Positions 269-41,853 of a stretch of 64,000 bases of DNA are shown in pieces. Source of the DNA: Candidatus Omnitrophota bacterium (GTDB lineage Bacteria; Omnitrophota; Gorgyraeia; Duberdicusellales; 4484-171); NCBI GenBank assembly GCA_016935525.1, contig JAFGQU010000002.1, forward strand, positions 98,560 through 162,559. The letters are read 5' to 3'. A program made the translations under genes and the position numbers. Positions within the stretch are counted from its first letter, which is position 1. Every line of letters starts with the position of its first letter. The notes under the pieces were generated by a model. It was not told the origin of the DNA. It was given only the letters and a program-made list of their open reading frames with translations, and ran no database searches.

Positions 269-2371
269 TTATTCGTGAGTGACGATAAAATCAACCGGTT
301 CGTAAATCTGGGCCTGTCCGTATTCCCAGCTTTCTACCAGATCCTCATGTGCATCAAAAGGGATCCGCAGGCAGGTAAGGCTGAGTGCTGGAAATGTATA
401 CAAAAAGGTACGTGCTCTTTCCGATATTTCCTGCCCGGCTACGGTAATTTCACCCGTGAGTTCTTTACCGTTTTTATTTATCACCATCATTATTATATCA
501 CTATCATTTTGGCACGCATAGATGTTGAATGCCCCGGATAATGACGTCGTTACCTTGAGAATACGGCCGTGAAAATAACGGGAAAAAAGATAAAAAGGGT
601 AATAAAGAGGCGTCTTTTGATCGGTATCATCGATAAGCGCAGCGTATTGGTCAGAAGAATTAAGGCAAAACTGAAGAGCATAATCGACCCCGTGAGTCGC
701 GAATATCCCGTAACAATCGGCAAGGTACAATACTTTAAGAATATACGGGTAAGGAATCATGGAATCCGCTTCAACGTTAAATTCGGTAATTGCTAATTCT
801 AATTGCGGATCGATCTCCTCAATCCATGTTCTAAACGCAGGCACTATTGCATTTACTTCATCGTACGGCAAAGACAGATCATATTTATTAGGGTATTCCT
901 GATCCCACCAGTTTCGTGTCGAACACAGCAACTCTTTCAAAGGAACTTTTTTTATATCTCCAAAATCGGCAAAAAAGTGAAAACTAAACACGTCTAAAAT
1001 ACGTACTCCTTCGGGATTCTCCGTGCTATTCTGTTCATAATCCCGGCATTTCTTTATAAAAGAAAGCGCAGCGTTTTCATTTTGGTCATCCCCGGAAAAG
1101 GTCTTCCAGTCTTGATGTGATGTCGAGATGCCGGGGGCGAAGATCTTTATATCCAAAGAAGGATCTATTTCCTGCTGAACCTTTTTTATCATATACGCGA
1201 TCTTTTTGAATGTATTGAAATACTCTTCGACCGCATACGGTTTATCAACCACATCATAATGCACGTTATGCCAGATAAACGGTTCGTTACCGATTTCAAA
1301 AAACCGTACATTATATTTTTTCTCCTGATTAAGATACCGAATAAACGAGGCGACATCCGAAAGCGAGTTTTCTTTAAATACGGTGTCGCCATTCGTTCCG
1401 GTCGTAAAATAGCCCAAGGCATTTATTTGAATAAGCGGTTCCGCTCCCAAGGACCGGCAATAACGGATAAATTCATCAAGTCCGGTCATCAGCTGAGTCT
1501 GATCTGAACCCGGGAAAGAATATGTATTTTCCCGCCAGTCGTAACGGTCCATAAACGGACCGCCGGCACGGATCATTTTAAGATTGAGCGGAATCACTTC
1601 CTTTTTATCGGGAAGATCAAGCCACACCCCCCAATTCACGCCGTATAGATACGGATGTATCATCGGGCCCGCTGATGATACGGGGGGAAGATGTATTTCT
1701 ATCGACGGAGCTCCACGGGGTTGCATGTGACTGGCTATTTGTGTAAAAATATGACGAGGTGGCTTACTGCGTATATCTTCCAGGCTCACTCTTCCGGTTA
1801 CTTTTTTTAAAAATTTCATGTTTTGCACATACATCGTCCCTTTTTCTTGATCGTATCCTTTTTTATGAAAGCCGATTCCTTTTACTCTATCCCATTCGAT
1901 AGAAGGAGAATATCCGGGGTGACGGGGCGCCCAATCCTTCGCTATTTTGAAATCGGAGAATACAAGGCAAAAAGATTGATAGCCAGGAGTAATCATGAAT
2001 TTCGTCTGATAACGTTTAGACAGGCCTGTATTCTTATCTTCGGTGACGACATAACAGTATATTTCCTGAGGGATATCGCTTTTGGCGACTAATTCAATAC
2101 CCTGGTATCCTTCAATATTTCGAGGGTTTTCATACTCAAGATAAAAATCTATTTCCGGCCAGGGCCATAGCTTAGTCGCCCCTAAAGAATATGTCAGTTG
2201 GATACCGTCTTTTTCTTCGATGACCCCTTGAGAGCCGCCTTGGTGCCCTGAATCGGATATGACTTTCCAGGAAGAAAGTTTCCCCAGAGTTACCGGGATG
2301 TCCTGCCGGCCGCCGCAGCCGGAAAGCAGGACAGCAAGGAAAAAGAAACAAACGAAAATTATCCTTTTCAT
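269..2371 (-). CDS. glycoside hydrolase lipoprotein, clan GH-A-like (GH5/GH39-like catalytic domain) with N-terminal beta-sandwich region
   Basis: N-terminal signal peptide with lipobox LLSGC. 'FEIGNEPFIW' matches the clan GH-A acid/base NEP motif. 'AITEFN' is a candidate nucleophile motif. Long unbroken ORF. Confidence 0.5.
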   Translation of the reverse strand: MKRIIFVCFFFLAVLLSGCGGRQDIPVTLGKLSSWKVISDSGHQGGSQGVIEEKDGIQLTYSLGATKLWPWPEIDFYLEYENPRNIEGYQGIELVAKSDIPQEIYCYVVTEDKNTGLSKRYQTKFMITPGYQSFCLVFSDFKIAKDWAPRHPGYSPSIEWDRVKGIGFHKKGYDQEKGTMYVQNMKFLKKVTGRVSLEDIRSKPPRHIFTQIASHMQPRGAPSIEIHLPPVSSAGPMIHPYLYGVNWGVWLDLPDKKEVIPLNLKMIRAGGPFMDRYDWRENTYSFPGSDQTQLMTGLDEFIRYCRSLGAEPLIQINALGYFTTGTNGDTVFKENSLSDVASFIRYLNQEKKYNVRFFEIGNEPFIWHNVHYDVVDKPYAVEEYFNTFKKIAYMIKKVQQEIDPSLDIKIFAPGISTSHQDWKTFSGDDQNENAALSFIKKCRDYEQNSTENPEGVRILDVFSFHFFADFGDIKKVPLKELLCSTRNWWDQEYPNKYDLSLPYDEVNAIVPAFRTWIEEIDPQLELAITEFNVEADSMIPYPYILKVLYLADCYGIFATHGVDYALQFCLNSSDQYAALIDDTDQKTPLYYPFYLFSRYFHGRILKVTTSLSGAFNIYACQNDSDIIMMVINKNGKELTGEITVAGQEISERARTFLYTFPALSLTCLRIPFDAHEDLVESWEYGQAQIYEPVDFIVTHE

Positions 2372-2383: not shown

Positions 2384-3394
2384 TTATTTCTTGCATGAAA
2401 TCTTCCGCAGGAACAATACGACGACGATAGGGACGCCTGCGGAGATACCGGTCACACCGAACATGGCCAGGGTTACTACCCATGCGGTAGTAATTACCCA
2501 TAGCGGTACGAAAGATAGCGATAATAAAAGCACCGCGGATAACGGAAACACACTCACGATGGAATCCAGCGCATCGAAACAGCTCGCCTGCGACAGGACC
2601 GACATCAGGATAATGCCTGCCGTCACCAGTAAAGGAGCCGAAAAGACACACCAACCAAAACCTCTTCTTTCCGACATGCTTTCGGTATATCGAGAAGATT
2701 CTACACCTAACCGATACAGAAAACTCAATATTATCAGTATTCCTAAAAAACCGTAATCATACATCTCCCGGGGGATATCCCGGCCGATAAAGAGCATCGT
2801 GTACACTCTTGTGAACGGAAGAAGGAAAAATAAATATTTCCAGCCGGTTTTTTTAAAACGAGAACATTCTATGAGGAAATAAGGCGTAAAAAAAGAGATC
2901 GAGAAATAAAACCAGGCACTGAGCGCGAAAGGATGGACGTGTTCAGTCAAGTAACCGGAACCCAACGGATCAAAAAAATGCCATCGCCACCAGTGGCAGC
3001 CCACCGCAGCCTCTTCAATCCCATAGGCAAACGCGGCGACGATCATCGCCGCGACTAATATGAGCGGGAATATTTCCGGTGATGACTTTCTGATCCGATC
3101 AAAAATCCTCTCAGCAAGATGCCAGGAAAGATAGAATACGATCATCCAGCCTATTGCCGTATTTACTATCGCCAGGGACAACGGCATACCGGAAGTATGT
3201 ATAAAAGGAGCCGGATGGGAAAAAACTCCCGGAATGGATATAAAAGACCCGGTTTCTTTTGCCAATCCGAAAAGGAAAGAAGATACAAAAAAACTCACAG
3301 TAAGCCGGCGCCCCCGGAGGCGCCGGGAATGGACAATAAGCAACGGGATACTCAGATACATAACCAGGAAAACAACAAGAATATGAATCGTCAT
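2384..3394 (-). CDS. polytopic membrane protein, paralog 1 of a three-member uncharacterised family in this window
   Basis: Hydrophobic throughout. Shares motifs with 11291..12358 and 12334..13518: 'GWMIVFYLSWHLAE', 'IEEAAVGCHWWRW' and 'YFLIECSRFKK'. Confidence 0.55.
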   Translation of the reverse strand: MTIHILVVFLVMYLSIPLLIVHSRRLRGRRLTVSFFVSSFLFGLAKETGSFISIPGVFSHPAPFIHTSGMPLSLAIVNTAIGWMIVFYLSWHLAERIFDRIRKSSPEIFPLILVAAMIVAAFAYGIEEAAVGCHWWRWHFFDPLGSGYLTEHVHPFALSAWFYFSISFFTPYFLIECSRFKKTGWKYLFFLLPFTRVYTMLFIGRDIPREMYDYGFLGILIILSFLYRLGVESSRYTESMSERRGFGWCVFSAPLLVTAGIILMSVLSQASCFDALDSIVSVFPLSAVLLLSLSFVPLWVITTAWVVTLAMFGVTGISAGVPIVVVLFLRKISCKK

Positions 3395-3464: not shown

Positions 3465-4694
3465 CTATTCAATTATATTTTTACTTTTTAAGGATGGTGT
3501 AAGATAAAAAATATTTCCCGAAACAATACTTTCGAGAAACGCTTCGTAATTGACGATGAGTTCTTTCAACGCGTTCTCATCAGTCACCGTGACGGATTTT
3601 TGAGCCATCTTCTTACAATAGGCACATTCAGAACAAACCCGCTGCGCACCGGCATCGTCGTTTAGAAAATGTTCGATGAATCCGTCTAAGGCGCGATTAT
3701 CGATATAAAGCGGCGGAGAAACCATAAGTTCCTTCATTTTGGAAAATCTCAGGACATCTACCTCCAGGGGACGGAAAAAATGCCGTAAGACATGGACCAG
3801 TTTTTTCACCGGGGAAAGATTTTCAAAGACAAAGGTCCGGCTGGGGTCGGAAAACAGATCCAACAGATTTCCGTCGTATCGTCGCCGGGTATAGGCAGCG
3901 ACAGTGCGGACAATATCCCTGGTCGGCATCGTTCTATTTACCAGTTTAAAATTATCTATCCCTATTTCTTCGTACACACCGGTATCTTCCGGACGGATCC
4001 ATCCGGACCGTATAAATTCTTCCGGGTTTTTCAAACGGATATGATTACACATAAGGAAACAATAGTCGACTACGAACCGGTTCCCGCTTTCGTCGGTCTG
4101 AGAGCTATGAGAACTGCTGTTTCCATGGTAAAGCCAGAAAGGACAATTTTTCAAACACTGGAGATTTACTATTAATTGCACTTCGCAAGATACATGATCC
4201 TTTAGTCTTCTCAATAAAAGAAAATTACGGTTGGCCCGGTGGACCGAAAGAGTGATCCTGTCGGCACCCATATCCTGCCAATGCCGCGCTTCCTGGATTG
4301 TATCGATACCGGTTTGAGTTGAAACATACACTTTGAATCTCGGATATCTTTTTTTGATACGCTGGAGGAGGTAGGGATTGGCGACAGTCAATGCGTCAAC
4401 ACCGATATGGTCAAGCCAACCCAGAAGACGCTCGATCTCATATTGCCCTTTCCTTGACCATTCTCTATTCCCCAAACAGGTACTGTTAAGCAGATAGTTA
4501 AAACGTAAACCATATCGATGCGTTTTTTCTACATAGCGCTTCACGGCACGCCGGGAAATGTCCGGTAACGCAAACGAGACTCGTCCTCCCCCGATGATAT
4601 CTTTCGCTAATTTACCGTATATTTCCGCCGCCGCGGTTTTATCGATTTGATCCAGCAATTGAAGGTCCCAATTAGTAGGAATGCTCAGTTGCAT
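3465..4694 (-). CDS. peptidase U32-family (UbiU/RlhA-type TIM-barrel) protein, divergent paralog
   Basis: Aligns with the canonical U32 gene at 8387..9409. 'GVDALTVANPYLLQRIKKR' matches 'GVDAVIISDIGLLRYVREK', 'VYVSTQ' matches 'VHISSC', and 'EVQLIVNLQCLKNCPF' matches 'EIEVFILNERCFYVDGFC'. Has a C-terminal CxxCxxC cluster. Confidence 0.55.
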   Translation of the reverse strand: MQLSIPTNWDLQLLDQIDKTAAAEIYGKLAKDIIGGGRVSFALPDISRRAVKRYVEKTHRYGLRFNYLLNSTCLGNREWSRKGQYEIERLLGWLDHIGVDALTVANPYLLQRIKKRYPRFKVYVSTQTGIDTIQEARHWQDMGADRITLSVHRANRNFLLLRRLKDHVSCEVQLIVNLQCLKNCPFWLYHGNSSSHSSQTDESGNRFVVDYCFLMCNHIRLKNPEEFIRSGWIRPEDTGVYEEIGIDNFKLVNRTMPTRDIVRTVAAYTRRRYDGNLLDLFSDPSRTFVFENLSPVKKLVHVLRHFFRPLEVDVLRFSKMKELMVSPPLYIDNRALDGFIEHFLNDDAGAQRVCSECAYCKKMAQKSVTVTDENALKELIVNYEAFLESIVSGNIFYLTPSLKSKNIIE

Positions 4695-4750: not shown

Positions 4751-7543
4751 TTATTCTAATAAACGGTTTTTCACAATTATTTTGCTTATCTGCTGTGCGA
4801 ATAGTTTTTGGCCAAAACTCGTAAGATGCATGAAATCCCACCAGAGCGGATTGTCCACATCCTGTTGATCTAACCCAGCTTGGGGCGAAAGCAAAGGCAC
4901 GCGATAACGATGCGCCAGTCCTTCCAGGACCACATGCATAATGGCGGCATGTTTGATATCCGCCTCCTGAGAATTAGGTTCTTTGACAAATACAATATCG
5001 ATCCCGCGTTGCTGGCAGGGAAGAATGAATTTTTCTATAAGAGTCTGACGGAATTTTTCCCGGATGGTCTCTTTGTCCGGCCGGCTATCGGCGCCATGTA
5101 CGCCGGTGAGTCGAAGCCGGGCGCCTATACGATAGACCATCCGCCGGTACCAGGGAAAAGACTGCTTCTTATATGTCTCTCTCGCGTTCAACCAGAAATA
5201 ATAATCGTTGTTCGAAAGATTTAACACAATAACCTTGGGGTTATATTTGTAGAGAAAATTATTAAAAAAATTGCCAAGAAAAAGAGAATTTGCGCCATTG
5301 ATACCGCAGTTGATCACTTTGATATTTTTTCCCCGGGCCGACTGATTAAGATACTCTTCCACATACGCCGCGATGGTATGAGCCCGGTCCACTGCTCCGG
5401 CGCCCCAGGTCTGCGATGAACCCAAAAGCAACACAATATCTTTCCCTTTTATTTCCTCATCATACCCTTCGCCAAAATCATTATTACGTAAAAACGCGGC
5501 CAACCCTTGAGGCGGACGGCAGAGTTCACTGATGTCTTTTTTGAGACGAAAATAGGAAAATACCGTAGGCTGTAGATCTAAAGGGAGATCCGAAACCGGC
5601 TCACGGCCTATCGCAAGGATAAGTATCGTAGCGGCCAGTATGAATATACCGTTACGGATACGGTGTGCCCGTACAAGAAAGAAAACGATTATTGCCAGGC
5701 AGGCGCAATACAACATAAAATAGAAGAATTTATCGTTACAAAGGATATCCCTGAACACGATAGAGAGGATGAAAAAAGGAAACAGCAGAGAAAAAAACAG
5801 GAATACACCGTAAAAAGAGAACTGCCCTTCTTTTGTCCGATAACGGGGAGCAATGCTCACCGCGAACAACATCGTCAGAAAAAGGATTATCCCCAACACA
5901 AACACCGAAGAAATGATTTTTTTCGTTTTTACCCAATCCAGAATATGTATACCCTCAGGCAATTGCCGGACAGATATGTCCGATAACCGAGGGGTGCCGG
6001 CAACCGGAAATAAATAGAACGGACCATCTTCCTTTTCTTCTTCATCGTACCGTTTCCGGTCGACCACAATACCGTCGATCTTCGCCTCTAACATCCCACC
6101 GCTTTTAAAAATATCCAGCCGATACCGTGTCCCTTTTTGTAACGGATATATGGTACGGGGAGATGTATAGTTAAACGAAAAATCGTTATAGGCACCGAAA
6201 TAAGGGGCTATTTCTTCAAAGCCGGAGGGAACATCCGGGTCTGCGCTTAAAATAAACTTGTTATTCCCCATACCCACAAGCAGTTTTGAATATCCGTCCA
6301 ACATACAGAGAGAAGAAAAATGGTACCCCTCTGCCGGCAGCTCGATGCGTTTAGGCCATACCAATTGTATCGGGCCGCGATAAGATTCCGATCGAGATGA
6401 CCCCGGATTCGGACGGTACCTTTTGAATATATTCAGTGAGGTCCCGTTATATATGAATAAAAACACACAACTTAAAAAAAGTACCATATAGAGAATATTC
6501 CGGGGAGAAAAATCGCCCTGGCGGACAAGGGATTTATACCGACTCCCATATACATACGCTGTCACAAATACCAGGCAATAAAGAGAAAAAAACCACAGAG
6601 AAGGGATCCAGACGGTCCCGAAATAGAACAGAGAAAAAACGGTAAACCGTAACGAAGGCCACAGATAGTTGACGAGTAACAGCGTGCTCCCGGCACACAA
6701 TAATACTCTCAACAAAGGCCGGACTATTTCCTGTACCGCTTCCGCCATACGATCTTCCGGCGATTTCCCTCCTATATATATCGCCAGGGATAAGAACAGG
6801 ACATGGATACCGAAACTGATCAAAACCGAATAAAGGAATACTATCGGCACCGGTAACGGTCCCTGGAAATCGTCATGAAAGACAACGAACTCTTTGCTCT
6901 CACTACCGGCATACCTCCCGATAATCTCGACATTATCGATTACTACCGAATGGAGCCCGCTTCTAAACCCGATCCGCCCCAATTCGACAGAAGGTTCGGC
7001 GATTACACCCGCTGGTTGTCCGTCAATATATAATTCAAATTGCCCTTCACGTAATACCACCGAAACCGCGTACCATCGGCCCACTTCCAGCGGAGAATGT
7101 GCTGCATCGATTTTTTTAATATTTTCCATGAACGGAGAGAACCGGATAAAACTCACATTCCGGCTGAGAGAACTACCCAGACGAAACGCGAAGCTTCCTT
7201 GCTCATTCTTTTTGAACAGAAAATATACATAACTTTGAGGGCTTCCTAAATACACATCAAAATTCACCCTGGTGAATCGCAACTGTTCATCCTCGGGAAT
7301 CTTACATTCGATCTGATTAAAACCGTAGAATTTATTGAGTGCTAAATTGTCGTCGACAAGATAATGCAAATACTTAAAGGAATACGTTCCCATTACCGGG
7401 TACGCCAAATGATCTTTCGCAATATCCCAATGCGTATCATCAAAAGCATTGAAGTAAGAATGTAAAAATATATAGGTATTGAGCGAAAACACCAGGACCG
7501 TAGCGAAAAAAAGGACAGCTGAAGAGGTGAAGTGTTTTTTCAT
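4751..7543 (-). CDS. large multi-pass membrane protein with two concanavalin/LamG-like domains and a C-terminal SGNH (GDSL-like) hydrolase domain
   Basis: C-terminal SGNH blocks: 'LLLGSSQTWGAG' (block I), 'CGINGANS' (II/III) and 'WWDFMHLT' (block V DxxH). Two LamG-like segments ('WYAVSVVLREGQFELYIDGQP' and 'GGMLEAKIDGIVVD') are separated by hydrophobic TM clusters. Confidence 0.55.
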   Translation of the reverse strand: MKKHFTSSAVLFFATVLVFSLNTYIFLHSYFNAFDDTHWDIAKDHLAYPVMGTYSFKYLHYLVDDNLALNKFYGFNQIECKIPEDEQLRFTRVNFDVYLGSPQSYVYFLFKKNEQGSFAFRLGSSLSRNVSFIRFSPFMENIKKIDAAHSPLEVGRWYAVSVVLREGQFELYIDGQPAGVIAEPSVELGRIGFRSGLHSVVIDNVEIIGRYAGSESKEFVVFHDDFQGPLPVPIVFLYSVLISFGIHVLFLSLAIYIGGKSPEDRMAEAVQEIVRPLLRVLLCAGSTLLLVNYLWPSLRFTVFSLFYFGTVWIPSLWFFSLYCLVFVTAYVYGSRYKSLVRQGDFSPRNILYMVLFLSCVFLFIYNGTSLNIFKRYRPNPGSSRSESYRGPIQLVWPKRIELPAEGYHFSSLCMLDGYSKLLVGMGNNKFILSADPDVPSGFEEIAPYFGAYNDFSFNYTSPRTIYPLQKGTRYRLDIFKSGGMLEAKIDGIVVDRKRYDEEEKEDGPFYLFPVAGTPRLSDISVRQLPEGIHILDWVKTKKIISSVFVLGIILFLTMLFAVSIAPRYRTKEGQFSFYGVFLFFSLLFPFFILSIVFRDILCNDKFFYFMLYCACLAIIVFFLVRAHRIRNGIFILAATILILAIGREPVSDLPLDLQPTVFSYFRLKKDISELCRPPQGLAAFLRNNDFGEGYDEEIKGKDIVLLLGSSQTWGAGAVDRAHTIAAYVEEYLNQSARGKNIKVINCGINGANSLFLGNFFNNFLYKYNPKVIVLNLSNNDYYFWLNARETYKKQSFPWYRRMVYRIGARLRLTGVHGADSRPDKETIREKFRQTLIEKFILPCQQRGIDIVFVKEPNSQEADIKHAAIMHVVLEGLAHRYRVPLLSPQAGLDQQDVDNPLWWDFMHLTSFGQKLFAQQISKIIVKNRLLE

Positions 7544-7598: not shown

Positions 7599-8369
7599 TC
7601 ATGGGTACAAAGTATAGACAATTCTATCGACCGGATGATCTTCTCCGTCATACGCCTCAAAATGAGGGTTTTTATAAAAAAAAGCGTTCTTTCGAATAAA
7701 AATAGGGGTTTCGATATTTTTTATAGCTATGACGATCTCTTCCGGTAAAGACGCCCCGCTCCCCGAAAAGATTTTAAATCTATCCCGGCCGCTAAACAGC
7801 GGATAGCGGGTAAGAGTAAGATACACATCCGGTACATGCAAGGAAAAAGAGAACGGCATCTCATCCAACTGTTCTTTAGCGACCCCCAAAGCGGTATTAC
7901 TCAATTCAATACGTTCAATATGCTGTTCTTTCATAAAGGCGGTAAAATATGTATTTACGGGAATCCGTTGCCATTTTTCGGAAATATTTTTTCCCGGCCG
8001 GCGATGGGTACCTAGCCTTGGATCCGACGGTTGGTGGGTTAAAAGCCGCCCTAAAGAAATTTTTACCCCGCTCTCCCGGCAGAGAGGGAGAAAACCCCAG
8101 TCGTTAAGCACGACTTCTAGGTCCAATCCTTGACAGCCCGATAACAACCGTACTATCCCTGCGTAGGCGTCAACACCTCTATCGGTAAGGAAAGGGGTCA
8201 CTAAGGTCATTCTCAATGCGTGTTGGCTGCAGAAATCCATCAACCGTTTCGTATCATCGACGGAAGGGATGTTTTCATTACAGAATTCATCGCCAAAATA
8301 AATCCGTTGATACCGGTCATCCCAAAGATCACATTGATCGATATGTTGTATATTTAACGCATATTCCAT
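7599..8369 (-). CDS. U32-family protein, short UbiV-like subunit
   Basis: 'RIYFGDEFCNEN' resembles the UbiV N-terminal 'IYLGEAVCSKR' region. It lies immediately downstream (minus-strand sense) of a canonical U32 gene, as in the ubiU-ubiV pair. Start moved to the internal Met (MEYALN) to avoid overlap. Confidence 0.45.
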   Translation of the reverse strand: MEYALNIQHIDQCDLWDDRYQRIYFGDEFCNENIPSVDDTKRLMDFCSQHALRMTLVTPFLTDRGVDAYAGIVRLLSGCQGLDLEVVLNDWGFLPLCRESGVKISLGRLLTHQPSDPRLGTHRRPGKNISEKWQRIPVNTYFTAFMKEQHIERIELSNTALGVAKEQLDEMPFSFSLHVPDVYLTLTRYPLFSGRDRFKIFSGSGASLPEEIVIAIKNIETPIFIRKNAFFYKNPHFEAYDGEDHPVDRIVYTLYP

Positions 8370-8386
8370 AATAAAAACATCATGAT

Positions 8387-9409
8387 TTATCGATAATAAC
8401 AGTATTGATCGCCGCAATACTTGCGGTATTTTTGAGCAAGACCCCGTACCTCAGCAACAAATTCTCCCTGCGGAATATCCTGTTCCGACAAGGCAATCGC
8501 ATCTTTTACGAACCGTATATTCCGAATCCGTTCGGTAAACATTGACCGCCCGCAAATCTTCACATGACTCACTTTTAATTCTTTCAAATCGCGCAAAGCG
8601 CAGGCTCCACAGGCATATAAAAATGACCGGGGATCATTAAAGTATTTTTGTGGTCGAAAAGCCGGTTCTCCCCCATCCTCAATCCCATAGGGGAAACAAC
8701 ACGCATGGTCATGGTTCACTACATACCTGTGCATTACCTGAAGTATTTTTCTGGGAATAACCGCCGCAGCAGATGCCAGCCACATATTGAAATGCCACAG
8801 AACAGTGGCGGCACCTAATCTTTTTGTAATATTCCCATGCTGGAAACGGCAAAACCCGTCCACATAAAAACAACGTTCGTTGAGGATAAAAACTTCGATC
8901 TCCATGCCGCCACCGGCGCAGATAGACCCTATTTCTTCTCTCGTCAGCTGGCGAGGCAGGATAATCCGCGAAGCCCCCATATTTTTATAAAAAGCGCGTG
9001 TGTGGGAATTGAATACGTTCGCGCAGGAACTGATATGTACAGATACATCGTATCCCTTCTCCCGCACATATCGTAAAAGCCCGATATCGCTTATGATAAC
9101 CGCGTCAACGCCGCAGTCATACGCTTGTTTTACCTGCTCCATTGCCGCACACAGCTTGTCGTCATCGTAAAACTCATTGAGCACCAAGCTCAAGGGAATT
9201 TTTAAATCGTGCGCTTTTTTCACTAACCGTCTTAACTGAGAAAAGTCGTTCAGGTTGGAAAACACCTCCGAACGGTGGTTTACGCATCCGGACCCTCTTG
9301 AATCACACCATTCATCCTTGGTGAACACGCCGCAATACAACTCATCGGCGCCGGCGGCAACGAGACTCTCAGCATCCTGCACTCTGTGGATAGGGACAAC
9401 TATATTCAT
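8387..9409 (-). CDS. peptidase U32-family protein (UbiU/RlhA-like, canonical)
   Basis: N-terminal 'GADELYCGV' and 'EIEVFILNERCFYVDGFCRFQHGN' match the U32 signature (E-x-F-x-H-G-x-x-C-x-x-x-x-G-x-C). TIM-barrel-like alternating pattern. Confidence 0.7.
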   Translation of the reverse strand: MNIVVPIHRVQDAESLVAAGADELYCGVFTKDEWCDSRGSGCVNHRSEVFSNLNDFSQLRRLVKKAHDLKIPLSLVLNEFYDDDKLCAAMEQVKQAYDCGVDAVIISDIGLLRYVREKGYDVSVHISSCANVFNSHTRAFYKNMGASRIILPRQLTREEIGSICAGGGMEIEVFILNERCFYVDGFCRFQHGNITKRLGAATVLWHFNMWLASAAAVIPRKILQVMHRYVVNHDHACCFPYGIEDGGEPAFRPQKYFNDPRSFLYACGACALRDLKELKVSHVKICGRSMFTERIRNIRFVKDAIALSEQDIPQGEFVAEVRGLAQKYRKYCGDQYCYYR

Positions 9410-10950
9410 CTGATCGGCATACGCGGGTCGGATACGTTCATCAAATAGAAATAAAGCGGTATCCGTTGGTCATATCTGATATATTCTACCTTTATATTGC
9501 CGCTCATCGCCTCCGGATCTATACGTTCTAAAGAAAGCAATACCGCTTGTTCATGACGGGGAAAACCGGTCAGGACAGTCATCGTCTGCATATCATATAT
9601 TCCGTTACCGATATATTGCACCACACGATGTTCTCCGCCAACTCCGTACAAACTGGTACTTCCCGGTAAATACATCCATATTCGTCTTATTACTTTGTGG
9701 GTAGTCAGACTTCCCGGCACGCATACTGCGGAAATGTTCTGCTGGCGCATATATACTGAAAGCCACCGGCTCGATTCCTTGATCTGATATTCCTGACTAC
9801 GGCTTAACGAATCCCCTTTCCTTTTTACGTCATACTGTAATGCTCTTATCTGAAAAACACACACCAAAACAAGCAGGGCTATTCCCCCTACGAAATATAT
9901 TTTTTTCATCATGAATCGGGGGAAGAGATACCGCTCGAGAACGGCAGAAGATAAAATAGCCATTAAAGGCACCAATGGGATCAGGATTCGCCCCTCTAAA
10001 CAGAAAAGCCCTTGTGATAAAATCCTCAGGGAATGGAAAAAATGGGTAATCTGGAATCCGGCGAGAAAAGCGACCATAATCAAAAAAAATCGCGTCACAA
10101 ACCAGTAGCGCGGATCCCGCCAGTTCATCTTTGCCCCCCAGAAAGCCATAAGAATAACCGGATGTAAAAACAGTATGCCGCCGAGTATAAGGAACCTATC
10201 GAATGGGCCGGTCGCACTCACCGGGAATACCGACGGATACAGATAAAAAAATATCTGGAAAAAATCATACTTTAAAAAATGAATAATAAAAATACTCCAT
10301 AGGATAAAAGGTATACCCATAAAAATCGCATATCGCTTCTTATATTTCCCCCGGAAAAGGCCCAACCAGATCGCGATACACAAAAGGCCTTCTACCTGCC
10401 GAAATAAAGGCAAAAAGGCAACCAGCATGAATGATACGGTATATTTTCTTTTCAATGTCAGAAAAACCGCAAGAAGGATCATAAAGGCGAACATGATCTC
10501 GGAAAACGTAGAAATAGATCCGAGGAAATAGACCGGAAATGTAATCGCCAAAAATACGGCTATTGACGCGGCCCGGCGGGAAAGCGAAAGCATCCGGGCA
10601 ATCCGATAGACGAGAAAAAGGGTCGCACAGGAAAATAAAATATTCATTATCCGCAGTGAAAATATACCAAAAGGCAGGAGAATATGGAATACGCTCCCCA
10701 TAATGGCGTATCCGACCTTTACATAGGGATTGAGAAAAATAAGCCAGTTATAGGGCGCAGCCTTGATATAGCAATAACGGAATATATCATCGACGTTATA
10801 TAAGATATATTGATCGAGCAAAGCCGCGCGGAGAGGCTCACGGATACACCAGGCAAAAATCATGAGAACCCCACCAATCGCAGAAATAAGAAGGAGAGGA
10901 AGCTGTGTGTCTTTTTCCTCGTGGGAAGGGCGCATTGTCTTATTGAACAA
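9406..10950 (-). CDS. GT-C fold membrane glycosyltransferase, ArnT/PMT_2-like
   Basis: More than 10 predicted TM helices. 'LPFGIFSLRIMNILFSCATLFLVYRIARML' matches the PMT_2/ArnT family pattern. ATGA overlap with the upstream gene. Confidence 0.5.
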   Translation of the reverse strand: MFNKTMRPSHEEKDTQLPLLLISAIGGVLMIFAWCIREPLRAALLDQYILYNVDDIFRYCYIKAAPYNWLIFLNPYVKVGYAIMGSVFHILLPFGIFSLRIMNILFSCATLFLVYRIARMLSLSRRAASIAVFLAITFPVYFLGSISTFSEIMFAFMILLAVFLTLKRKYTVSFMLVAFLPLFRQVEGLLCIAIWLGLFRGKYKKRYAIFMGIPFILWSIFIIHFLKYDFFQIFFYLYPSVFPVSATGPFDRFLILGGILFLHPVILMAFWGAKMNWRDPRYWFVTRFFLIMVAFLAGFQITHFFHSLRILSQGLFCLEGRILIPLVPLMAILSSAVLERYLFPRFMMKKIYFVGGIALLVLVCVFQIRALQYDVKRKGDSLSRSQEYQIKESSRWLSVYMRQQNISAVCVPGSLTTHKVIRRIWMYLPGSTSLYGVGGEHRVVQYIGNGIYDMQTMTVLTGFPRHEQAVLLSLERIDPEAMSGNIKVEYIRYDQRIPLYFYLMNVSDPRMPIR

Positions 10951-13547: not shown

Positions 13548-14273
13548 TTATTCGATAATCATATCAATATCCGTGAGATCACTATCTCCTATATGTAACG
13601 GATTGTCCTTATAAGAAACCCGGCGGCAGCGCGGATCGTTCCCGCTGCTTGCTCCCGGGGGCACGGTTACCGCCATCAGACATACGTCGCCTACCCCTTG
13701 GGGAACACTAATAGTATACGGCCCGGGAGCCGAAAGAACAATATTGGCGATATCAGGAGGCAACCGGACCTTATGATACCGTTCGACTTCATATACTCCC
13801 ACCTCCACCCTTCCGCCAGTGAACTGAGCGTCATAGACCTGACCGGATATCGTCACCGTCGGGCCGGAATATCGTTCCATCACCAAACGGTTCGCGCGTA
13901 AAGGGATCGTATAATGAGATATATTTTCCTCACCGATAACGATAGGATCGGAGATAAAATACGCAAATGAATATCGCTTCTGGGGAGTGTCGCCGCGGTT
14001 ACGGGAAAGAAGATATATCGGCCCGGAATTCTTAGGGATCTTCAGTGTATACCGGCCGGGGCGGTTTAAATATACTATGCCTTGAGCGGCAGGATTTCCA
14101 TGTTGCAGTTTCTTCGACCATAACACCTCGATATCGCCCTTTTCGAACTCATCATAGACGACTTCCCCTTCAATGACTATATACGACCGTTGTTGATGCC
14201 AGATCTTAATACAAAGAGCCCCTACCACAATACCGATAATAATACCTGCCAATATTTTCCGGACCATGTTCAC
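13548..14273 (-). CDS. membrane-anchored exported protein of unknown function (two beta-rich repeats)
   Basis: N-terminal TM anchor 'ILAGIIIGIVVGALCIKIW'. Internal repeat 'GRYTLKIPKNSGPIYLL' / 'GPYTISVPQGVGDVCLM'. No recognisable catalytic motif. Confidence 0.4.
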   Translation of the reverse strand: MNMVRKILAGIIIGIVVGALCIKIWHQQRSYIVIEGEVVYDEFEKGDIEVLWSKKLQHGNPAAQGIVYLNRPGRYTLKIPKNSGPIYLLSRNRGDTPQKRYSFAYFISDPIVIGEENISHYTIPLRANRLVMERYSGPTVTISGQVYDAQFTGGRVEVGVYEVERYHKVRLPPDIANIVLSAPGPYTISVPQGVGDVCLMAVTVPPGASSGNDPRCRRVSYKDNPLHIGDSDLTDIDMIIE

Positions 14274-15808
14274 CGCTCTTTTATTCTACAATAATATGTC
14301 TCAACGCCGGGTATCTTTTTATCCTGAAAAACTATTTCCTGTTCTCTCAACCATTCCCGTAGCTGCGAGGAAAGATAAGGAACTCCTTCCCAATGAGAAC
14401 ATACGACCCACGCGCCGCGGGCTGAGGAAGCGATCCGATGGATATCGGCTATTTCAAAACCATAGGTACCCTGCAACGCGGAAAAAGAACCATCGTCGGG
14501 AAAATCTGCAGGGTCGATAATTAAATAAATATACTGTCGTAACCGCTGAGGGAAATAATACTGAAATGACGGCCAAATATTCTGAGTCGAGAGGACGATG
14601 ATATCGCCTTCCTTGTATCGTGAGACGATCGACCGGGCGATCTGACGCAGCGGCTTCCGGGGAAATACACTGACGGTCCTGCGAAAATTTTTTTCATCGT
14701 AATAATTCCCTAACGTAAGAACCGTCACCGATAGAAAAAGCGCTCCCATCAGTACCGCAAGGTATTTATATTTAAAAAGCCGTTCCCACCCCAGCACGAG
14801 CACGAGATAGTAACACGGCGACAACGCGATCAACGTACGGGTCAAAAGTATCGGTTTTGCTGAATAAGAGAAAATAATTATAAGCGCCAGAGGAGCCCAT
14901 AGGTAGCTCGCGATGAAACTCCTTTGGCTGAAAGAGTCGTCCTGCCCGGTCTTTCCGGAAACAATGGGATAAAATAGTATCGCCCACAGTAATCCTCCCG
15001 CAGTGATCAGCAATAATAACCATCCGTTGATATTGGCAGTATAATATCCGAACAGGAACTGTTCAAATACCTCAATAAGCCTCTGGATTGAGACCGGAGG
15101 GATCCAAAAATCGTTTCGTATACTCCCCAGATGAGCAAAAAACTTAGCCCCCCAGGGAATGAACAATAAGATGAGTATGCCCTGAGCTGACAGCCAGGAC
15201 GGTATTAATTCCTTATATCTCCTCCAATTGAAAAACAAAAATACATTATGGGAAAGAATAATAAGAAAAGCAAAATAATGAGTGTAAAGAGAAAGGGCAG
15301 TAACAAAGACCGTGATTCCCAGTATTCTACCGTCTCGTGTTTTTAAAAATACCTGAAAAAAATATATCGAACCGAGAGACAATAAAAGAAGAAGAGAATA
15401 CATCCGGATCTCCTGGGCATAATGTATCTGAAAAGGAGAAACCGCGATAAAAAATGCACCGAGCAACGCTATTTTTTTAGAAAAGATCAGTTCAGCGAGT
15501 TTATACAGTAACCAGATGCTGATAATACTGAATACTACCGACGGGATTCTCAGAAAGGCGTCACTTGACCCCAGATGTTTCCACCAATACATGAGAAGCC
15601 GATAGAGCGGAGGATGTGTCCCGACGCTAAAGGTGGTAAAAATACTTTTTAATCCCTGTTCAGCCTGTAATAATGTCTGCGCTTCATCGAACCATACCGA
15701 TTTCACATCCAAACGGAAAAAACGCAACATCGCTCCTACTCCCAGCACACAGATAAGGCCGCTATATCCGCGGGATATCTTTGCGATGAGCTGCGAAATT
15801 ATCGGCAT
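14270..15808 (-). CDS. GT-C fold membrane glycosyltransferase, ArnT/PMT (GT39/GT83)-like
   Basis: 'VWFDEAQT' DE-motif loop after TM1, 'THPPLYRLL', and 'RIPSVVFSIISIWLLYKLAELIF'. Polytopic. Confidence 0.6.
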   Translation of the reverse strand: MPIISQLIAKISRGYSGLICVLGVGAMLRFFRLDVKSVWFDEAQTLLQAEQGLKSIFTTFSVGTHPPLYRLLMYWWKHLGSSDAFLRIPSVVFSIISIWLLYKLAELIFSKKIALLGAFFIAVSPFQIHYAQEIRMYSLLLLLSLGSIYFFQVFLKTRDGRILGITVFVTALSLYTHYFAFLIILSHNVFLFFNWRRYKELIPSWLSAQGILILLFIPWGAKFFAHLGSIRNDFWIPPVSIQRLIEVFEQFLFGYYTANINGWLLLLITAGGLLWAILFYPIVSGKTGQDDSFSQRSFIASYLWAPLALIIIFSYSAKPILLTRTLIALSPCYYLVLVLGWERLFKYKYLAVLMGALFLSVTVLTLGNYYDEKNFRRTVSVFPRKPLRQIARSIVSRYKEGDIIVLSTQNIWPSFQYYFPQRLRQYIYLIIDPADFPDDGSFSALQGTYGFEIADIHRIASSARGAWVVCSHWEGVPYLSSQLREWLREQEIVFQDKKIPGVETYYCRIKER

Positions 15809-17227: not shown

Positions 17228-17293
17228 CTGGCAAGGTTACGTTGAGCCGATCTTTCTTGAAAAAAATCTATCATTTTTTGCCCGAAGGCACCG

Positions 17294-18718: not shown

Positions 18719-18759
18719 CGCCTTTATTATACCTTAATAACCTTACAATGAATCGATAT

Positions 18760-22105: not shown

Positions 22106-22850
22106 GTTTTTTTGATTTTAATCTGCCGGGGATAAAACGCGGGACACGAGACATATAATCGGCGTACGCCTGCGGGTATTCACCCAATAATTCTTTCTCT
22201 TCCTGTAACGCCAGCCGCCAGTAAGTAAACAATAGTATCGGCAATAACAATAACGTAGGGAACGTCGGCCAGGAAATACACCATCCCACGAGGATAAGGG
22301 AAATCCCTACATACTGGGGGTGGCGGATGAAACGATAGATACCGTCGGTAACCAGCCCTTCGCCCTTGTATATTTTACGCCAGGCCGCGATGATTAAAAA
22401 AATGCCGAATGCCACCGGAATCCTCCCCAATAAAAGGACCCAGCGGATAATCAGTTCCTGGTGGACAATGAACCGTCGGAAATCGGGGTATTGAAAAAAC
22501 GGGGAAAACATATACATCCCGAGCGCAAACCCGAACATCTCGGTAAATAAAGAGATCCAGAATGCCGTCAACATGCCTTTTGATTTCCAGCTTCTTATAC
22601 GGGTATGTTCCGGCCTCTTACGATAGAGCAAAAAAGGGAACAATAGACAAAAAATAAATACATTGAGGAAAAACATCCCTTTGGGACCGATATATTTTAA
22701 TAAAAAAGCGCTGGTGGGAGGAGGGGCCTTTAATCCCCATAACCCGAGGGCACTTCCACTGTATAAATAGAGAAACCCTGCCACATGGATGATACCGCAT
22801 AGTATCAATATCTTTTCATACAGCCGGCTTTTTACCTTCTCTTTACGCAT
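22098..22850 (-). CDS. isoprenylcysteine carboxyl methyltransferase (ICMT)/phospholipid methyltransferase family membrane protein
   Basis: 'RHPQYVGISLILVGWCI' followed by 'EEKELLGEYPQAYADYMSRVPRFIP' matches the ICMT/PEMT signature. Confidence 0.7.
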   Translation of the reverse strand: MRKEKVKSRLYEKILILCGIIHVAGFLYLYSGSALGLWGLKAPPPTSAFLLKYIGPKGMFFLNVFIFCLLFPFLLYRKRPEHTRIRSWKSKGMLTAFWISLFTEMFGFALGMYMFSPFFQYPDFRRFIVHQELIIRWVLLLGRIPVAFGIFLIIAAWRKIYKGEGLVTDGIYRFIRHPQYVGISLILVGWCISWPTFPTLLLLPILLFTYWRLALQEEKELLGEYPQAYADYMSRVPRFIPGRLKSKKRV

Positions 22851-22992
22851 TGTATTTTCTTGATAAGGAATACAAAATAACTCGTCATTATTCTATAAAA
22901 AACCTCATATACCGATTTATTTTAGCAAAAGGAAGTGCCAAAAACAATCTTTGCTCTCTGGCCAAAAGCAGTTACTCCTCACTTTAGTGAAT

Positions 22993-25500: not shown

Positions 25501-25504
25501 GTGT

Positions 25505-29799: not shown

Positions 29800-29801
29800 A
29801 A

Positions 29802-32411: not shown

Positions 32412-32435
32412 ATTGGCACAGGCAATTTCATATAT

Positions 32436-41852: not shown

Positions 41853-41853
41853 A

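What the first reader, a model, noticed from the sequence alone, without database searches (positions are those of the whole stretch)
7599..9409. Adjacent long and short U32 genes arranged like ubiU-ubiV
A 340 aa canonical U32 protein with the E-x-F-x-H-G-x-x-C signature is followed, on the same minus strand, by a shorter U32-like protein whose N-terminus resembles UbiV (IYFGDEFCNEN). In E. coli the UbiU-UbiV heterodimer performs O2-independent ring hydroxylation. Here no ubiT and no obvious ubi methyltransferases are adjacent. Instead the pair is ATGA-coupled to a GT-C glycosyltransferase, so the substrate may not be ubiquinone.
Basis: partly seen in the sequence, partly recalled or inferred. 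Interest (0 to 1): 0.55.

Follow-up and report, generated by a model that had tools for sequence, protein, structure and literature searches.

The report
Two-gene U32 iron-sulfur enzyme pair
Two neighbouring genes in an uncultured Omnitrophota bacterium encode a long and a short subunit of a previously undescribed, widespread kind of U32 iron-sulfur enzyme, which probably adds hydroxyl groups without oxygen; it resembles the ubiquinone enzymes UbiU-UbiV in layout but is not them and almost certainly does not make ubiquinone.

Summary
The two genes are real and tightly linked. The 340-aa protein (8387-9409, minus) is a clear U32 protein. The short partner is 256 aa (7599-8369) and matches no Pfam or NCBIfam model. 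Profile comparison (hhalign 93%) and its family's UbiV-type cysteine pattern make it a remote U32 relative.

Neither protein is a UbiU, UbiV, TrhP or RlhA orthologue. Together they belong to an unnamed long+short gene-pair family found in many anaerobic phyla. In 69 species genomes, 51 of 72 short genes lie directly beside a long-family gene.

Elsewhere the pair sits inside quinohemoprotein amine dehydrogenase (qhp) operons where no QhpG, the O2-dependent tryptophan hydroxylase, was seen. It also sits in Omnitrophota peptide (RiPP-like) clusters. This suggests O2-independent hydroxylation of aromatic rings.

The substrate is unknown but is not ubiquinone.

Unusually, this genome's short subunit has lost three of its four iron-sulfur cysteine ligands. 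The "GT-C" label for the upstream gene is unproven. The quoted E-x-F-x-H-G-x-x-C motif is not present as written.

The parts
8387..9409 (-). Long subunit: a 340-aa U32 family protein. Invariant residues are C180-x6-C187-x3-H191, C237, C267-x2-C270 and C332-x4-C337. It has no PF16325 C-terminal domain.
   Evidence: Pfam PF01136 at 115 bits. NCBIfam UbiU 85/440 and TrhP 76/534. Family alignment A2. Alignment to E. coli U32 proteins. A2 HMM 415 bits.
7599..8369 (-). Short subunit: 256 aa, a remote U32-like TIM-barrel protein of an unannotated family. It keeps C30 (YFGDEFC) but has lost the family's C190/C203/C207 triad.
   Evidence: No Pfam or NCBIfam hit. Homologues and start site. hhalign 93.4% to the long family. 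AF2 pLDDT 75, beta/alpha repeats. Foldseek TIM barrels, best TM to 5d88. Matches 26 of 31 conserved columns; C->P190, C->G203, C->S207.
9406..10950 (-). 514-aa polytopic membrane protein, ATGA-coupled upstream of the long U32 gene. It is possibly GT-C-like, but this is unproven.
   Evidence: ATGA overlap. DUF2079 at 14 bits, below the 28.2 cutoff. No similarity to the window's PMT_2 paralogues. AF2 pLDDT 45.
4751..7543 (-). 930-aa membrane protein with LamG-like and C-terminal SGNH/GDSL domains. It is the next gene downstream in the same operon.
   Evidence: Pfam. A GDSL gene also neighbours the pair in L004.
3465..4694 (-). U32-like paralogue of type B (409 aa), one of three in the cluster.
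   Evidence: Pfam U32 N-terminal part only. About 1e-115 to 23120-24478 and 24298-25590. Conserved order long-short-U32B in L001. Alignment.
2384..3394 (-). 336-aa membrane protein, a paralogue of 11207-12358 and 12334-13518.
   Evidence: phmmer 1e-27 to 1e-32. A 342-aa unannotated gene occupies the equivalent position in L001; its homology was not tested.
269..2371 (-). GH44-like glycoside hydrolase (700 aa), last gene of the operon.
   Evidence: Pfam. Conserved at the same position in L001/L002.
14270..20280 (-). One PMT_2 GT-C gene plus three B12-binding radical SAM genes.
   Evidence: Pfam. NCBIfam best hits are HpnJ/BchE, all below cutoffs. Paralogy.
20543..26920 (-). PMT_2 GT-C, PEMT/ICMT-type membrane methyltransferase, two U32-like type B paralogues, and a second PMT_2 GT-C.
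   Evidence: Pfam.
26880..42618 (.). Rest of the cluster: WbuX-like amidotransferase, Ntn glutamine amidotransferase, polysaccharide deacetylase, carbamoyltransferase, GT2, two B12-rSAM, a variant rSAM, a UbiA-family prenyltransferase, GT2, two GT4, a WecA-like transferase and an MBL hydrolase.
   Evidence: Pfam. NCBIfam.

Best explanation
**What it is.** The two genes encode the long and short subunits of a two-component U32-type iron-sulfur enzyme. They belong to a distinct gene-pair family that has not been described and is widespread in anaerobes. This family is a relative of UbiU-UbiV and TrhP1-TrhP2, not an orthologue of either.

**Likely chemistry (inferred).** The most likely reaction is O2-independent hydroxylation of an aromatic or sp2 carbon, probably with prephenate as the oxygen donor, as in the characterised U32 enzymes.

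**Likely substrate (inferred).** In this Omnitrophota lineage the pair is a tailoring enzyme of a conserved ~42-kb envelope-biosynthesis cluster. That cluster contains B12-radical-SAM enzymes, GT-C, GT2 and GT4 glycosyltransferases, a UbiA prenyltransferase and three further U32-like proteins. The substrate is therefore a cluster-specific lipid-linked, glycan-linked or peptide intermediate, not ubiquinone.

**Role of the short subunit (inferred).** Here the short subunit has lost three of its four [4Fe-4S] ligands but keeps the rest of its conserved core. It probably serves as a cluster-less structural or substrate-binding partner, with the redox chemistry carried by the long subunit and its eight invariant cysteines.

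**Shown:** homology, family membership, conserved adjacency and synteny, and the cysteine loss.
**Inferred:** heterodimer formation, hydroxylase chemistry, the oxygen donor and the substrate class.
For: **Long protein.** It is a U32 protein but lies outside the UbiU, TrhP and RlhA models.

**Short family.**
- It is large and unannotated: 2102 clusters at 50% identity with E<=1e-3.
- It is remotely U32-like.
- Of the top 150 representatives, 138 carry both GxExC and Cx(6-24)Cx(2-4)C. These positions align with UbiV C39/C180/C193/C197. UbiV's motif is described in PMC6747719.

**Adjacency and synteny.**
- In 69 species genomes, 51 of 72 short genes are adjacent and co-oriented with a long-family gene scoring 190-400 bits, in both gene orders and across at least 8 phyla.
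- The gene order long - short - U32B - membrane protein - GH44, with B12-rSAM and PMT_2 genes nearby, recurs in other Omnitrophota at only 38-41% identity.

**Evidence for hydroxylase chemistry.**
- The pair lies inside qhp operons as qhpD-qhpC-short-long-qhpF-qhpE. No QhpG was seen there. QhpG is the O2-dependent Trp dihydroxylase (PMC7876137).
- In Omnitrophota RiPP-like clusters the pair accompanies W/Y/H-rich precursor peptides.
- The short protein occurs fused to SAM methyltransferases, which fits hydroxylation followed by O-methylation.
- True DAHP synthase genes neighbour the short gene (alone, or paired as in L050) in 5 loci from 2 phyla.
- U32 enzymes are proposed to be prephenate-dependent hydroxylases (PMC10990095).

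**Cysteine loss.** The window protein matches 26 of 31 conserved columns. Three of the five mismatches are the cysteine triad, each 99% conserved in the family. Orthologues in sister clusters keep these cysteines.
Against: - No biochemical data exist for any member of this pair family. Direct hydroxylase activity has not been shown in vitro even for TrhP or RlhA.
- Sequence evidence linking the short family to U32 and UbiV is remote. Direct UbiV scores are insignificant, and the Foldseek hits are generic TIM barrels.
- The qhp- and RiPP-associated members are only about 29-31% identical to the window's long protein and fall in other clades of a rough NJ tree. Function transfers at best at the level of chemistry.
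- The window cluster has no obvious aromatic substrate, precursor peptide, ABC exporter or qhp-like gene.
- Loss of three Fe-S ligands could mean that the short subunit, or the whole pair, is decaying in this genome.
- Nine short genes occur alone, so the partnership is not obligatory.
- The adjacency sample was seeded with two short-family sequence patterns and is therefore biased.
Confidence: 0.55

Rival explanations
1. The pair hydroxylates aromatic residues (Trp, Tyr or His) of a ribosomal peptide or envelope protein. The same substrate would also be C-methylated by the B12-rSAMs and glycosylated by the PMT-like GT-Cs of this cluster. On this reading the whole cluster is a protein or peptide modification system rather than a lipid or glycan pathway. 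This is a sub-variant of the best explanation that differs only in the substrate.
For: - The strongest functional associations of the family are peptide-based: qhp operons and Omnitrophota RiPP-like clusters with leader-bearing precursors, SPASM-type rSAM and ABC exporters.
- ABC exporters (20 of 69 loci) and rSAM genes (17 of 69) are the most frequent neighbours.
- The PMT_2 family includes protein O-mannosyltransferases.
- The B12-rSAMs also score against RiPP C-methyltransferase models such as ApyD and TIGR03975.
Against: - The window contains no precursor-like ORF, ABC exporter, leader peptidase or qhpD-like rSAM.
- The cluster carries typical lipid-linked sugar machinery: WecA-like transferase, GT2, GT4, WbuX, deacetylase, carbamoyltransferase and GH44.
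- The B12-rSAMs score higher against HpnJ and BchE than against the RiPP models.
Confidence: 0.2
2. The pair is an RNA hydroxylase analogous to B. subtilis TrhP1/TrhP2 (tRNA ho5U34) or RlhA, and its position in the biosynthetic cluster is incidental.
For: - Among the E. coli U32 proteins, TrhP is the long protein's best direct match, at 1e-19.
- B. subtilis uses a tandem long+short U32 pair in an operon with a methyltransferase.
- In Bacillota and Elusimicrobia the pair lies among housekeeping genes: recA, rny, and a rimO/mtaB-like gene.
- Methyltransferase fusions exist.
Against: - The TrhP model scores 76 bits against a cutoff of 534, and the TrhP-type C-terminal domain PF16325 is absent.
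- The long family branches outside TrhP and RlhA.
- Synteny with the cluster genes is conserved at about 40% identity.
- Some Omnitrophota carry two pairs per RiPP-like cluster.
- Embedding in qhp operons makes no sense for an RNA enzyme.
Confidence: 0.1
3. In this genome the short gene is a decaying remnant. The long U32 protein works alone or with another partner such as one of the three type-B U32-like proteins.
For: - Three cysteines that are each 99% conserved in the family are lost.
- Only 1 of 51 other adjacent partners lacks the triad.
- AF2 confidence collapses exactly in that region, residues 193-220.
- Three other U32-like genes lie in the same cluster.
Against: - The ORF is intact and tightly linked, with a 17-nt gap.
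- It retains 26 of 31 highly conserved columns, including E28, N89, D90, R108, R153, E155 and R188.
- The rest of the model is confident, with pLDDT above 85 over residues 1-110.
Confidence: 0.1
4. The pair is a genuine UbiU-UbiV system performing O2-independent ubiquinone ring hydroxylation. A further rival of the same low standing is that it is a U32 'collagenase-like' peptidase.
For: - The gene layout and the UbiV-like N-terminal motif.
- A UbiA-family prenyltransferase lies 27 kb away in the same cluster.
- The historical family name 'peptidase U32'.
Against: - UbiU scores 85 against a cutoff of 440. The short protein shows no UbiV hit, and even the long protein reaches only 22.5 bits against the UbiV model's cutoff of 275.
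- The cysteine motif differs from UbiU's CX6CX16CX38C.
- No UbiT is present.
- The UbiA homologue's best hits are archaeal-type, ChlG and DGGGP-type prenyltransferases, all below cutoff. The proteobacterial UbiA model scores 36 against a cutoff of 275.
- The UQ pathway is known only in Pseudomonadota and one Desulfobacterota class. Omnitrophota are fermentative with a fragmentary electron transport chain.
- No peptidase activity is established for characterised U32 proteins.
Confidence: 0.03

Closest known systems
UbiU-UbiV (E. coli YhbU/YhbV), the O2-independent, prephenate-dependent ubiquinone hydroxylase heterodimer
   Same: - Adjacent co-transcribed genes for a ~340-aa U32 protein and a shorter partner.
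- The partner family has one cysteine in an N-terminal (I/V)Y(F/L)G-x-E-x-C strand motif plus a distal C...C-x3-C triad, like UbiV's CXnCX12CX3C.
- The first two cysteines of the long subunit are spaced C-x6-C, as in UbiU.
   Different: - About 15-20% identity; both proteins fail the NCBIfam UbiU and UbiV models.
- The short family is not even recognised by Pfam PF01136.
- The long subunit lacks the canonical third cysteine. It has an insert of ~45 aa plus two extra invariant cysteine pairs.
- No UbiT is present and the host lacks ubiquinone.
- This genome's short subunit lacks three of the four ligands.
TrhP1/TrhP2 (B. subtilis YrrO/YrrN) and E. coli TrhP/RlhA, the prephenate-dependent RNA C5-hydroxylation factors
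   Same: - A tandem long+short U32 gene pair, both required, in an operon with a methyltransferase. Compare the short-family-methyltransferase fusions.
- TrhP is the closest E. coli sequence match to the long protein.
   Different: - Both YrrN and YrrO carry a recognisable Pfam U32 motif. YrrO and TrhP also carry the PF16325 C-terminal domain, which is absent here.
- The genomic contexts are different: biosynthetic, qhp and RiPP clusters.
QhpG, the FAD-dependent peptidyl-tryptophan 6,7-dihydroxylase of CTQ biogenesis
   Same: In several genomes the long+short pair occupies the qhp operon between qhpC/qhpD and qhpF/qhpE, where a Trp hydroxylase is required. It is therefore a likely functional analogue.
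   Different: - The fold and cofactor are unrelated: a flavoprotein that uses O2.
- The window's cluster contains no qhp genes.
U32 structure 5d88 (Methanopyrus kandleri Mk0906)
   Same: The only solved relative. The A2 profile hits it at E 4e-4, and the short-subunit model has its best TM-score to it (0.49/0.51).
   Different: It is a single-domain archaeal protein of unknown function with no partner subunit.

Membership tests
Pfam Peptidase_U32 (PF01136) | Score above the gathering threshold (22.4 bits) | tested here: met
   The long protein scores 114.9 bits over residues 89-316.
Pfam Peptidase_U32 (PF01136) | The short protein scores above the gathering threshold | tested here: not met
   No hit even at E<=10. 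Only 6 of 141 family members give sub-threshold hits. Remote homology is supported by hhalign at 93.4%, E 2.6e-7.
UbiU (NCBIfam NF047963 equivalog) | Whole-protein score of at least 440 bits | tested here: not met
   85 bits, N-terminal half only.
UbiU | Four [4Fe-4S] ligands arranged CX6CX16CX38C (PMC6747719) | tested here: not met
   C180-x6-C187 is present. There is no cysteine at the Cys3 position, where H191 and a ~45-aa insert occur instead. C237 aligns with canonical Cys4. Extra pairs C267xxC270 and C332x4C337 are present.
UbiV (NCBIfam NF047965 / PRK15447) | Whole-protein score above the cutoff (275 / 283 bits) | tested here: not met
   No hit for the window protein. Only 1 of 27 relatives hits each model, at E 0.025-0.044.
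UbiV | CXnCX12CX3C cysteine motif with the first cysteine upstream in the N-terminal strand | tested here: not met
   The family as a whole meets it as CXnCX(8-18)CX3C. The window protein keeps only C30, with C190P, C203G and C207S.
UbiUVT system | An SCP2 protein (UbiT) and a ubiquinone pathway in the same organism | tested here: not met
   No UbiT homologue in the 64-kb window. The rest of the genome could not be searched. Literature reports no UQ pathway in Omnitrophota.
UbiU-UbiV-type heterodimer | Physical association of the two subunits | not testable with these tools
   Only genomic linkage is available: 51 of 72 short genes adjacent and co-oriented, in both gene orders. No multimer prediction tool was available.
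TrhP / RlhA | Score above the equivalog cutoff (TrhP 534 bits) and the Peptidase_U32_C (PF16325) domain | tested here: not met
   TrhP model 76 bits. No PF16325. The family branches outside E. coli TrhP and RlhA.
Unnamed long+short U32 pair family (defined here) | Long subunit matches the A2 profile. Short subunit matches the A1/A3 profile. The genes are adjacent and co-oriented. | tested here: met
   A2 415 bits and A1 263 bits. The gap is 17 nt. The window groups with L001, L004 and L016 in the 'B12-cluster' clade.
Prephenate-dependent hydroxylase activity | Oxygen atom transferred from prephenate; anaerobic hydroxylated product | not testable with these tools
   Only indirect evidence is available: qhp-operon placement with no QhpG seen, DAHP synthase neighbours and methyltransferase fusions.
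GT-C glycosyltransferase (the upstream 514-aa gene) | Match to a GT-C clan family, or a GT-C fold | tested here: inconclusive
   DUF2079 at 14 bits against a cutoff of 28.2. No similarity to the window's PMT_2 proteins. AF2 pLDDT 45.5, so no fold search was run.

The most novel reading that the evidence does not exclude
The long+short pair defines a new class of O2-independent hydroxylases for aromatic rings, including peptidyl residues. In anaerobes this class would replace flavin- and O2-dependent enzymes such as QhpG in making tryptophylquinone cofactors, and it would tailor RiPPs. In this Omnitrophota cluster a variant with a cluster-less short subunit would work with three further U32-like proteins, five B12-radical-SAM enzymes, a UbiA prenyltransferase and several GT-Cs. 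Together they would build a so far unknown hydroxylated, C-methylated and glycosylated envelope molecule entirely without oxygen.
Probability: 0.3. Interest if true: 0.8.

Novelty: new variant of a known kind. Interest (0 to 1): 0.62.

Why it matters
Only three substrates are known for U32 'hydroxylases': ubiquinone precursors, tRNA U34 and 23S rRNA C2501. Most U32 subfamilies are uncharacterised.

This finding exposes a large, unannotated partner family with about 2100 clusters at 50% identity and no Pfam or NCBIfam model. Together with a dedicated long U32 clade it forms a conserved two-gene module across anaerobic phyla.

Placement of the module in qhp operons where no QhpG was seen gives a directly testable answer to how anaerobes could make the cysteine tryptophylquinone cofactor without O2. 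It would also extend prephenate-type hydroxylation from small molecules and RNA to peptides and natural products.

For annotation, it shows that 'hypothetical protein' genes next to U32 genes should be read as second subunits. It also shows that 'ubiU/ubiV-like' calls outside Pseudomonadota should not be taken as evidence of ubiquinone synthesis.

The window's own copy, with a cysteine-less short subunit, offers a natural experiment on what the second Fe-S cluster is for.

Tried and rejected
**Searches that found nothing useful**
- Exact-sequence lookup of the window's U32 protein found nothing.
- Direct PDB sequence searches with either protein found nothing relevant. The A1 profile against PDB gave only noise.
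- Single-sequence UbiV or UbiU as hhalign targets gave probabilities of 5% or less, because the templates had no depth.
- The UbiV homologue search returned only relatives of 85% identity or more among the 120 listed, so no deep UbiV profile could be built.
- A literature search for an existing description of U32 in qhp or RiPP contexts found none in the held library.

**Tools or inputs that failed**
- The search for related loci with A2 failed because the alignment had no conserved stretch to search with.
- AF2 of the 514-aa membrane protein without an alignment gave pLDDT 45, so the GT-C claim could not be tested by fold.

**Ideas tested and dropped**
- I looked for qhp genes, the Omnitrophota precursor-peptide family, or any plausible small precursor ORF in the window. 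None was found.
- I suspected a GxGxxG ORF near a qhp locus might be QhpG. It is a UDP-sugar dehydrogenase.
- I considered that the loss of the cysteine triad might be a frameshift artefact. This was rejected: the flanking alignment is continuous and the three positions are substitutions.
- I considered that the cluster might make hopanoid derivatives, given the HpnJ-like best hits. All scores are far below cutoffs and no cyclase is in the window, so this is left open and not adopted.
Full report
**1. What is in the sequence**

The region holds two co-oriented minus-strand ORFs.
- The 340-aa product of 8387-9409 is an unambiguous U32 protein: Pfam PF01136 at 114.9 bits against a cutoff of 22.4.
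- Its start overlaps the stop of the upstream 514-aa gene as ATGA.
- The downstream ORF is listed as 272 aa from a TTG at 8417. Homologue N-termini and the NCBI record (JXD21_00565, 256 aa) place the start at ATG 8369, 17 nt after the U32 stop codon.
- The source is a Candidatus Omnitrophica MAG on a contig of 171,716 bp.

The sequence reads E172-V-F-I-L-N-E-R-C180-x6-C187-x3-H191-G. The canonical H-G is absent, and so is the canonical third cysteine. The equivalent of the fourth cysteine (C237) follows a ~45-aa insert. Two extra invariant pairs, C267xxC270 and C332x4C337, are specific to this family.

**2. Is the short protein U32/UbiV-like?**

Direct searches say no.
- It has no Pfam, NCBIfam or PDB hit and no phmmer hit to UbiV.

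Deeper evidence says it is a remote relative.
- A profile search of 1.84 billion representatives found a large unannotated family: 2102 clusters at E<=1e-3 and 656 at E<=1e-30.
- A 141-sequence alignment of this family (A3) matches the long-U32 family by hhalign at 93.4% probability, E 2.6e-7, over 101 columns. The 27-sequence alignment had given only 64.5%.
- Peptidase_U32 is the only Pfam family hit by more than one member, in 6 of 141.
- The AF2 model (pLDDT 75, pTM 0.75) is a beta/alpha barrel. Foldseek returns generic TIM barrels, with the highest TM-scores (0.49/0.51) to the U32 structure 5d88.
- Of the 150 best representatives, 138 carry both an N-terminal G-x-E-x-C and a distal C-x(6-24)-C-x(2-4)-C. 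The profile aligns these four cysteines with UbiV C39, C180, C193 and C197. Pelosi et al. showed that these residues bind UbiV's [4Fe-4S] cluster in a CXnCX12CX3C motif peculiar to UbiV (PMC6747719).

The family is therefore UbiV-like in architecture. The sequence signal to UbiV itself is weak.

**3. A peculiarity of this genome**

The window's short protein matches 26 of the 31 columns that are at least 85% conserved in the family.
- Three of its five mismatches are exactly the distal cysteines: C190P, C203G and C207S. Each is 99% Cys in the family.
- Orthologues in sister Omnitrophota clusters keep them.
- Only 1 of 51 other adjacent partners lacks the triad.
- The flanking alignment is continuous, so this is substitution and not a frameshift.
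- AF2 confidence collapses in just this segment.

**4. Not UbiU/UbiV, TrhP or RlhA**
- The long protein scores 85 bits on the UbiU equivalog (cutoff 440) and 76 bits on TrhP (cutoff 534).
- Direct phmmer E-values are 1e-19 to TrhP, 3e-16 to RlhA and 2e-15 to UbiU.
- It lacks the TrhP-type C-terminal domain.
- In a rough NJ tree, all long-family members form one group outside the three E. coli proteins.
- No UbiT homologue is in the window.
- A genomic survey found the UQ pathway only in Pseudomonadota and one Desulfobacterota class. Omnitrophota genomes look fermentative, with a fragmentary respiratory chain.

**5. A conserved two-gene module**

A scan of one genome per species with the short-family alignment returned 69 loci. 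They come from Omnitrophota, Thermodesulfobacteriota and other delta lineages, Desulfosporosinus and other Peptococcaceae (including cultured strains), Elusimicrobia/Endomicrobia, Chloroflexota, Actinomycetota, Gemmatimonadota and a SAG labelled Nanoarchaeota.

Of the 72 short genes in these loci:
- 51 are immediately adjacent and co-oriented with a long-family gene (A2 profile 190-400 bits): 27 in long-then-short order and 24 in short-then-long order;
- 8 have a long-family gene within 10 kb;
- 9 are solo, all from one Thermodesulfobacteriota/delta subgroup;
- 4 lie at contig ends.

The sample is biased towards sequences that match the two seed patterns.

**6. Functional clues from other contexts**

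(a) qhp operons.
- Distant long-family members (29-31% identical) sit in complete quinohemoprotein amine dehydrogenase operons. The order is qhpA, qhpC, qhpB, qhpD (radical SAM), short, long, qhpF (ABC exporter), qhpE (S8 peptidase).
- The core qhpD-qhpC-short-long-qhpF-qhpE recurs in at least six species genomes.
- No QhpG-like flavoprotein is annotated there. One candidate proved to be a UDP-sugar dehydrogenase.
- QhpG is the O2-dependent enzyme that dihydroxylates the CTQ-precursor tryptophan of QhpC (PMC7876137). The pair is therefore a natural candidate for the O2-independent substitute.

(b) RiPP-like clusters.
- Other Omnitrophota loci carry one or two pairs.
- With them are 1-4 copies of 80-94-aa ORFs that have a conserved leader (KFRPxITRIKLNPEQAVLxCxCY) and a hypervariable W/Y/H/C-rich core.
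- These loci also carry SPASM-like radical SAM genes, ScmC and a qhpF-like exporter.
- ABC exporters (20 of 69 loci) and radical SAM genes (17 of 69) are the commonest neighbours.

(c) Fusions. The short domain occurs fused to class-I SAM methyltransferases, and once to a B12-rSAM plus GT4 plus methyltransferase. This fits hydroxylation followed by O-methylation.

(d) Shikimate link. Genuine DAHP synthase genes (with the FXD domain in the scanned Thermodesulfobacteriota representative) neighbour the short gene — solo in four loci, paired with a long-family gene in L050 — in five loci from two phyla. This fits the proposed prephenate dependence of U32 enzymes (PMC10990095).

(e) Prior literature. 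No paper in the held library links U32 proteins to qhp or RiPPs.

**7. The window's own context**

The pair lies in a seven-gene minus-strand run from 10950 to 269: 514-aa membrane protein, long, short, 930-aa LamG/SGNH membrane protein, U32-like type B, membrane paralogue, GH44-like.

This run is part of a ~42-kb cluster (269-42618) containing:
- three type-B U32-like paralogues, about 1e-110 to each other, with their own conserved cysteines;
- five B12-binding radical SAM paralogues, with best but sub-threshold hits to HpnJ and BchE;
- a variant radical SAM;
- a UbiA-family prenyltransferase, with best hits to archaeal-type, ChlG and DGGGP-type models and not to proteobacterial UbiA;
- three PMT_2 GT-Cs and a PEMT/ICMT methyltransferase;
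- a WbuX-like amidotransferase, a deacetylase and a carbamoyltransferase;
- GT2, GT4 and WecA-like transferases.

From 42.6 kb onward the genes are housekeeping pyrimidine-biosynthesis genes.

Synteny is conserved. The order long, short, U32B, 342-aa unannotated gene (same position as the window's membrane paralogue), GH44, with B12-rSAM and PMT genes upstream, recurs in other Omnitrophota at 38-41% identity. These long proteins form their own clade together with the window's.

The window has no qhp genes, no precursor family and no exporter. The upstream neighbour is not conserved. Its GT-C nature is unproven.

**8. Conclusion**

*Observation: partly confirmed.* The pair is real and non-random. 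The short gene is shorter than stated and is only a remote U32 relative. The motif was misquoted, and the larger context was missed.

*Interpretation: partly supported.* The ubiU-ubiV analogy in layout and the 'not ubiquinone' guess both hold. Orthology to UbiU/UbiV does not hold, and GT-C coupling is not established.

*Best explanation (confidence about 0.55).* This is a two-subunit U32 Fe-S enzyme of a new long+short family. It most likely acts as an O2-independent hydroxylase that tailors a product of this Omnitrophota envelope cluster. Here it has a short subunit without its cluster.

*Rivals.* They are a peptide or protein substrate, an RNA hydroxylase, a decaying short gene, and true UbiUV or a peptidase.

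The substrate and the chemistry are inferences. The qhp-operon members offer the most direct experimental test.

Noticed in passing
L085 7115-9020; L086 1799-3772; L054 7048-14600; also L060, L062, L063, L082, L083: The long+short U32 pair is embedded in quinohemoprotein amine dehydrogenase (qhp) operons between qhpD/qhpC and qhpF/qhpE. No QhpG flavoprotein is visible there. This suggests an O2-independent route to the cysteine tryptophylquinone cofactor.
   Followed up: partly
L017 1342-1617, 5460-5732, 13344-13619, 13790-14047; L019 15032-15283; L030 2436-2720, 3864-4148; L031 76-640; L048 4263-4508: A family of 80-94-aa ORFs with a conserved leader (KFRPxITRIKLNPEQAVLxCxCY) and hypervariable W/Y/H/C-rich cores ending in SS. 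They lie next to U32 pairs, SPASM-like rSAM genes, ScmC and ABC exporters, and look like an undescribed Omnitrophota RiPP class.
   Followed up: partly
window 3465-4694, 23120-24478, 24298-25590: Three closely related U32-like paralogues of 409-452 aa match Pfam U32 only in the N-terminal third. They have their own conserved motifs: FNYLLNSTCL, N..CL..CP, WIRPED and a C-terminal C..C.YC. The family recurs in other Omnitrophota clusters (L001, L004, L016).
   Followed up: partly
window 20295-20435 and 22986-23126: A 141-nt intergenic repeat, 91% identical, is made of four consecutive GC-rich hairpins. One hairpin differs between the copies only in its loop. Both copies lie between minus-strand genes of the cluster. 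There is no Rfam match.
   Followed up: partly
window 2384-3394, 11207-12358, 12334-13518: Three paralogous polytopic membrane proteins (1e-27 to 1e-34 to each other) have no Pfam or NCBIfam hit. Together with the 5 B12-rSAM, 3 U32-B and 3 PMT_2 genes, they give the cluster a repeated, set-like composition.
   Followed up: no
P0102, P0126, P0190, P0210, P0057 (L011 340-1755); P0133: The short-family domain occurs fused to class-I SAM methyltransferases, in either order. In one 1220-aa protein it is fused to a B12-radical SAM and a GT4 domain as well.
   Followed up: no
L050 8911-9729; L039 7377-8384; also L036, L037, L041: DAHP synthase genes (with the ferredoxin-like FXD domain in the one Thermodesulfobacteriota representative scanned, L039) lie within about 2 kb of the short U32-like gene in two phyla. 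This is a possible link to prephenate supply.
   Followed up: partly
L027, L036, L037, L039, L041, L045, L051, L053, L057; L007/L008: A 264-aa subgroup of the short family in Thermodesulfobacteriota/delta lineages occurs without any adjacent long U32 gene, yet it keeps all four cysteines. It may act alone or with an unlinked partner.
   Followed up: no
window 23120-24478 vs 24298-25590; 24298-25590 vs 25505-26920; 26880-27974 vs 25505-26920: The mechanical ORF calls overlap by 40-180 nt, and several use TTG or GTG starts. The true starts are probably further downstream, so the gene boundaries in this part of the cluster need curation.
   Followed up: no
window 45459-47507: A fused chorismate-binding (PabB-like) and class IV aminotransferase (PabC-like) gene lies just outside the cluster among pyrimidine-biosynthesis genes. 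It shows that chorismate metabolism is present in this organism.
   Followed up: no
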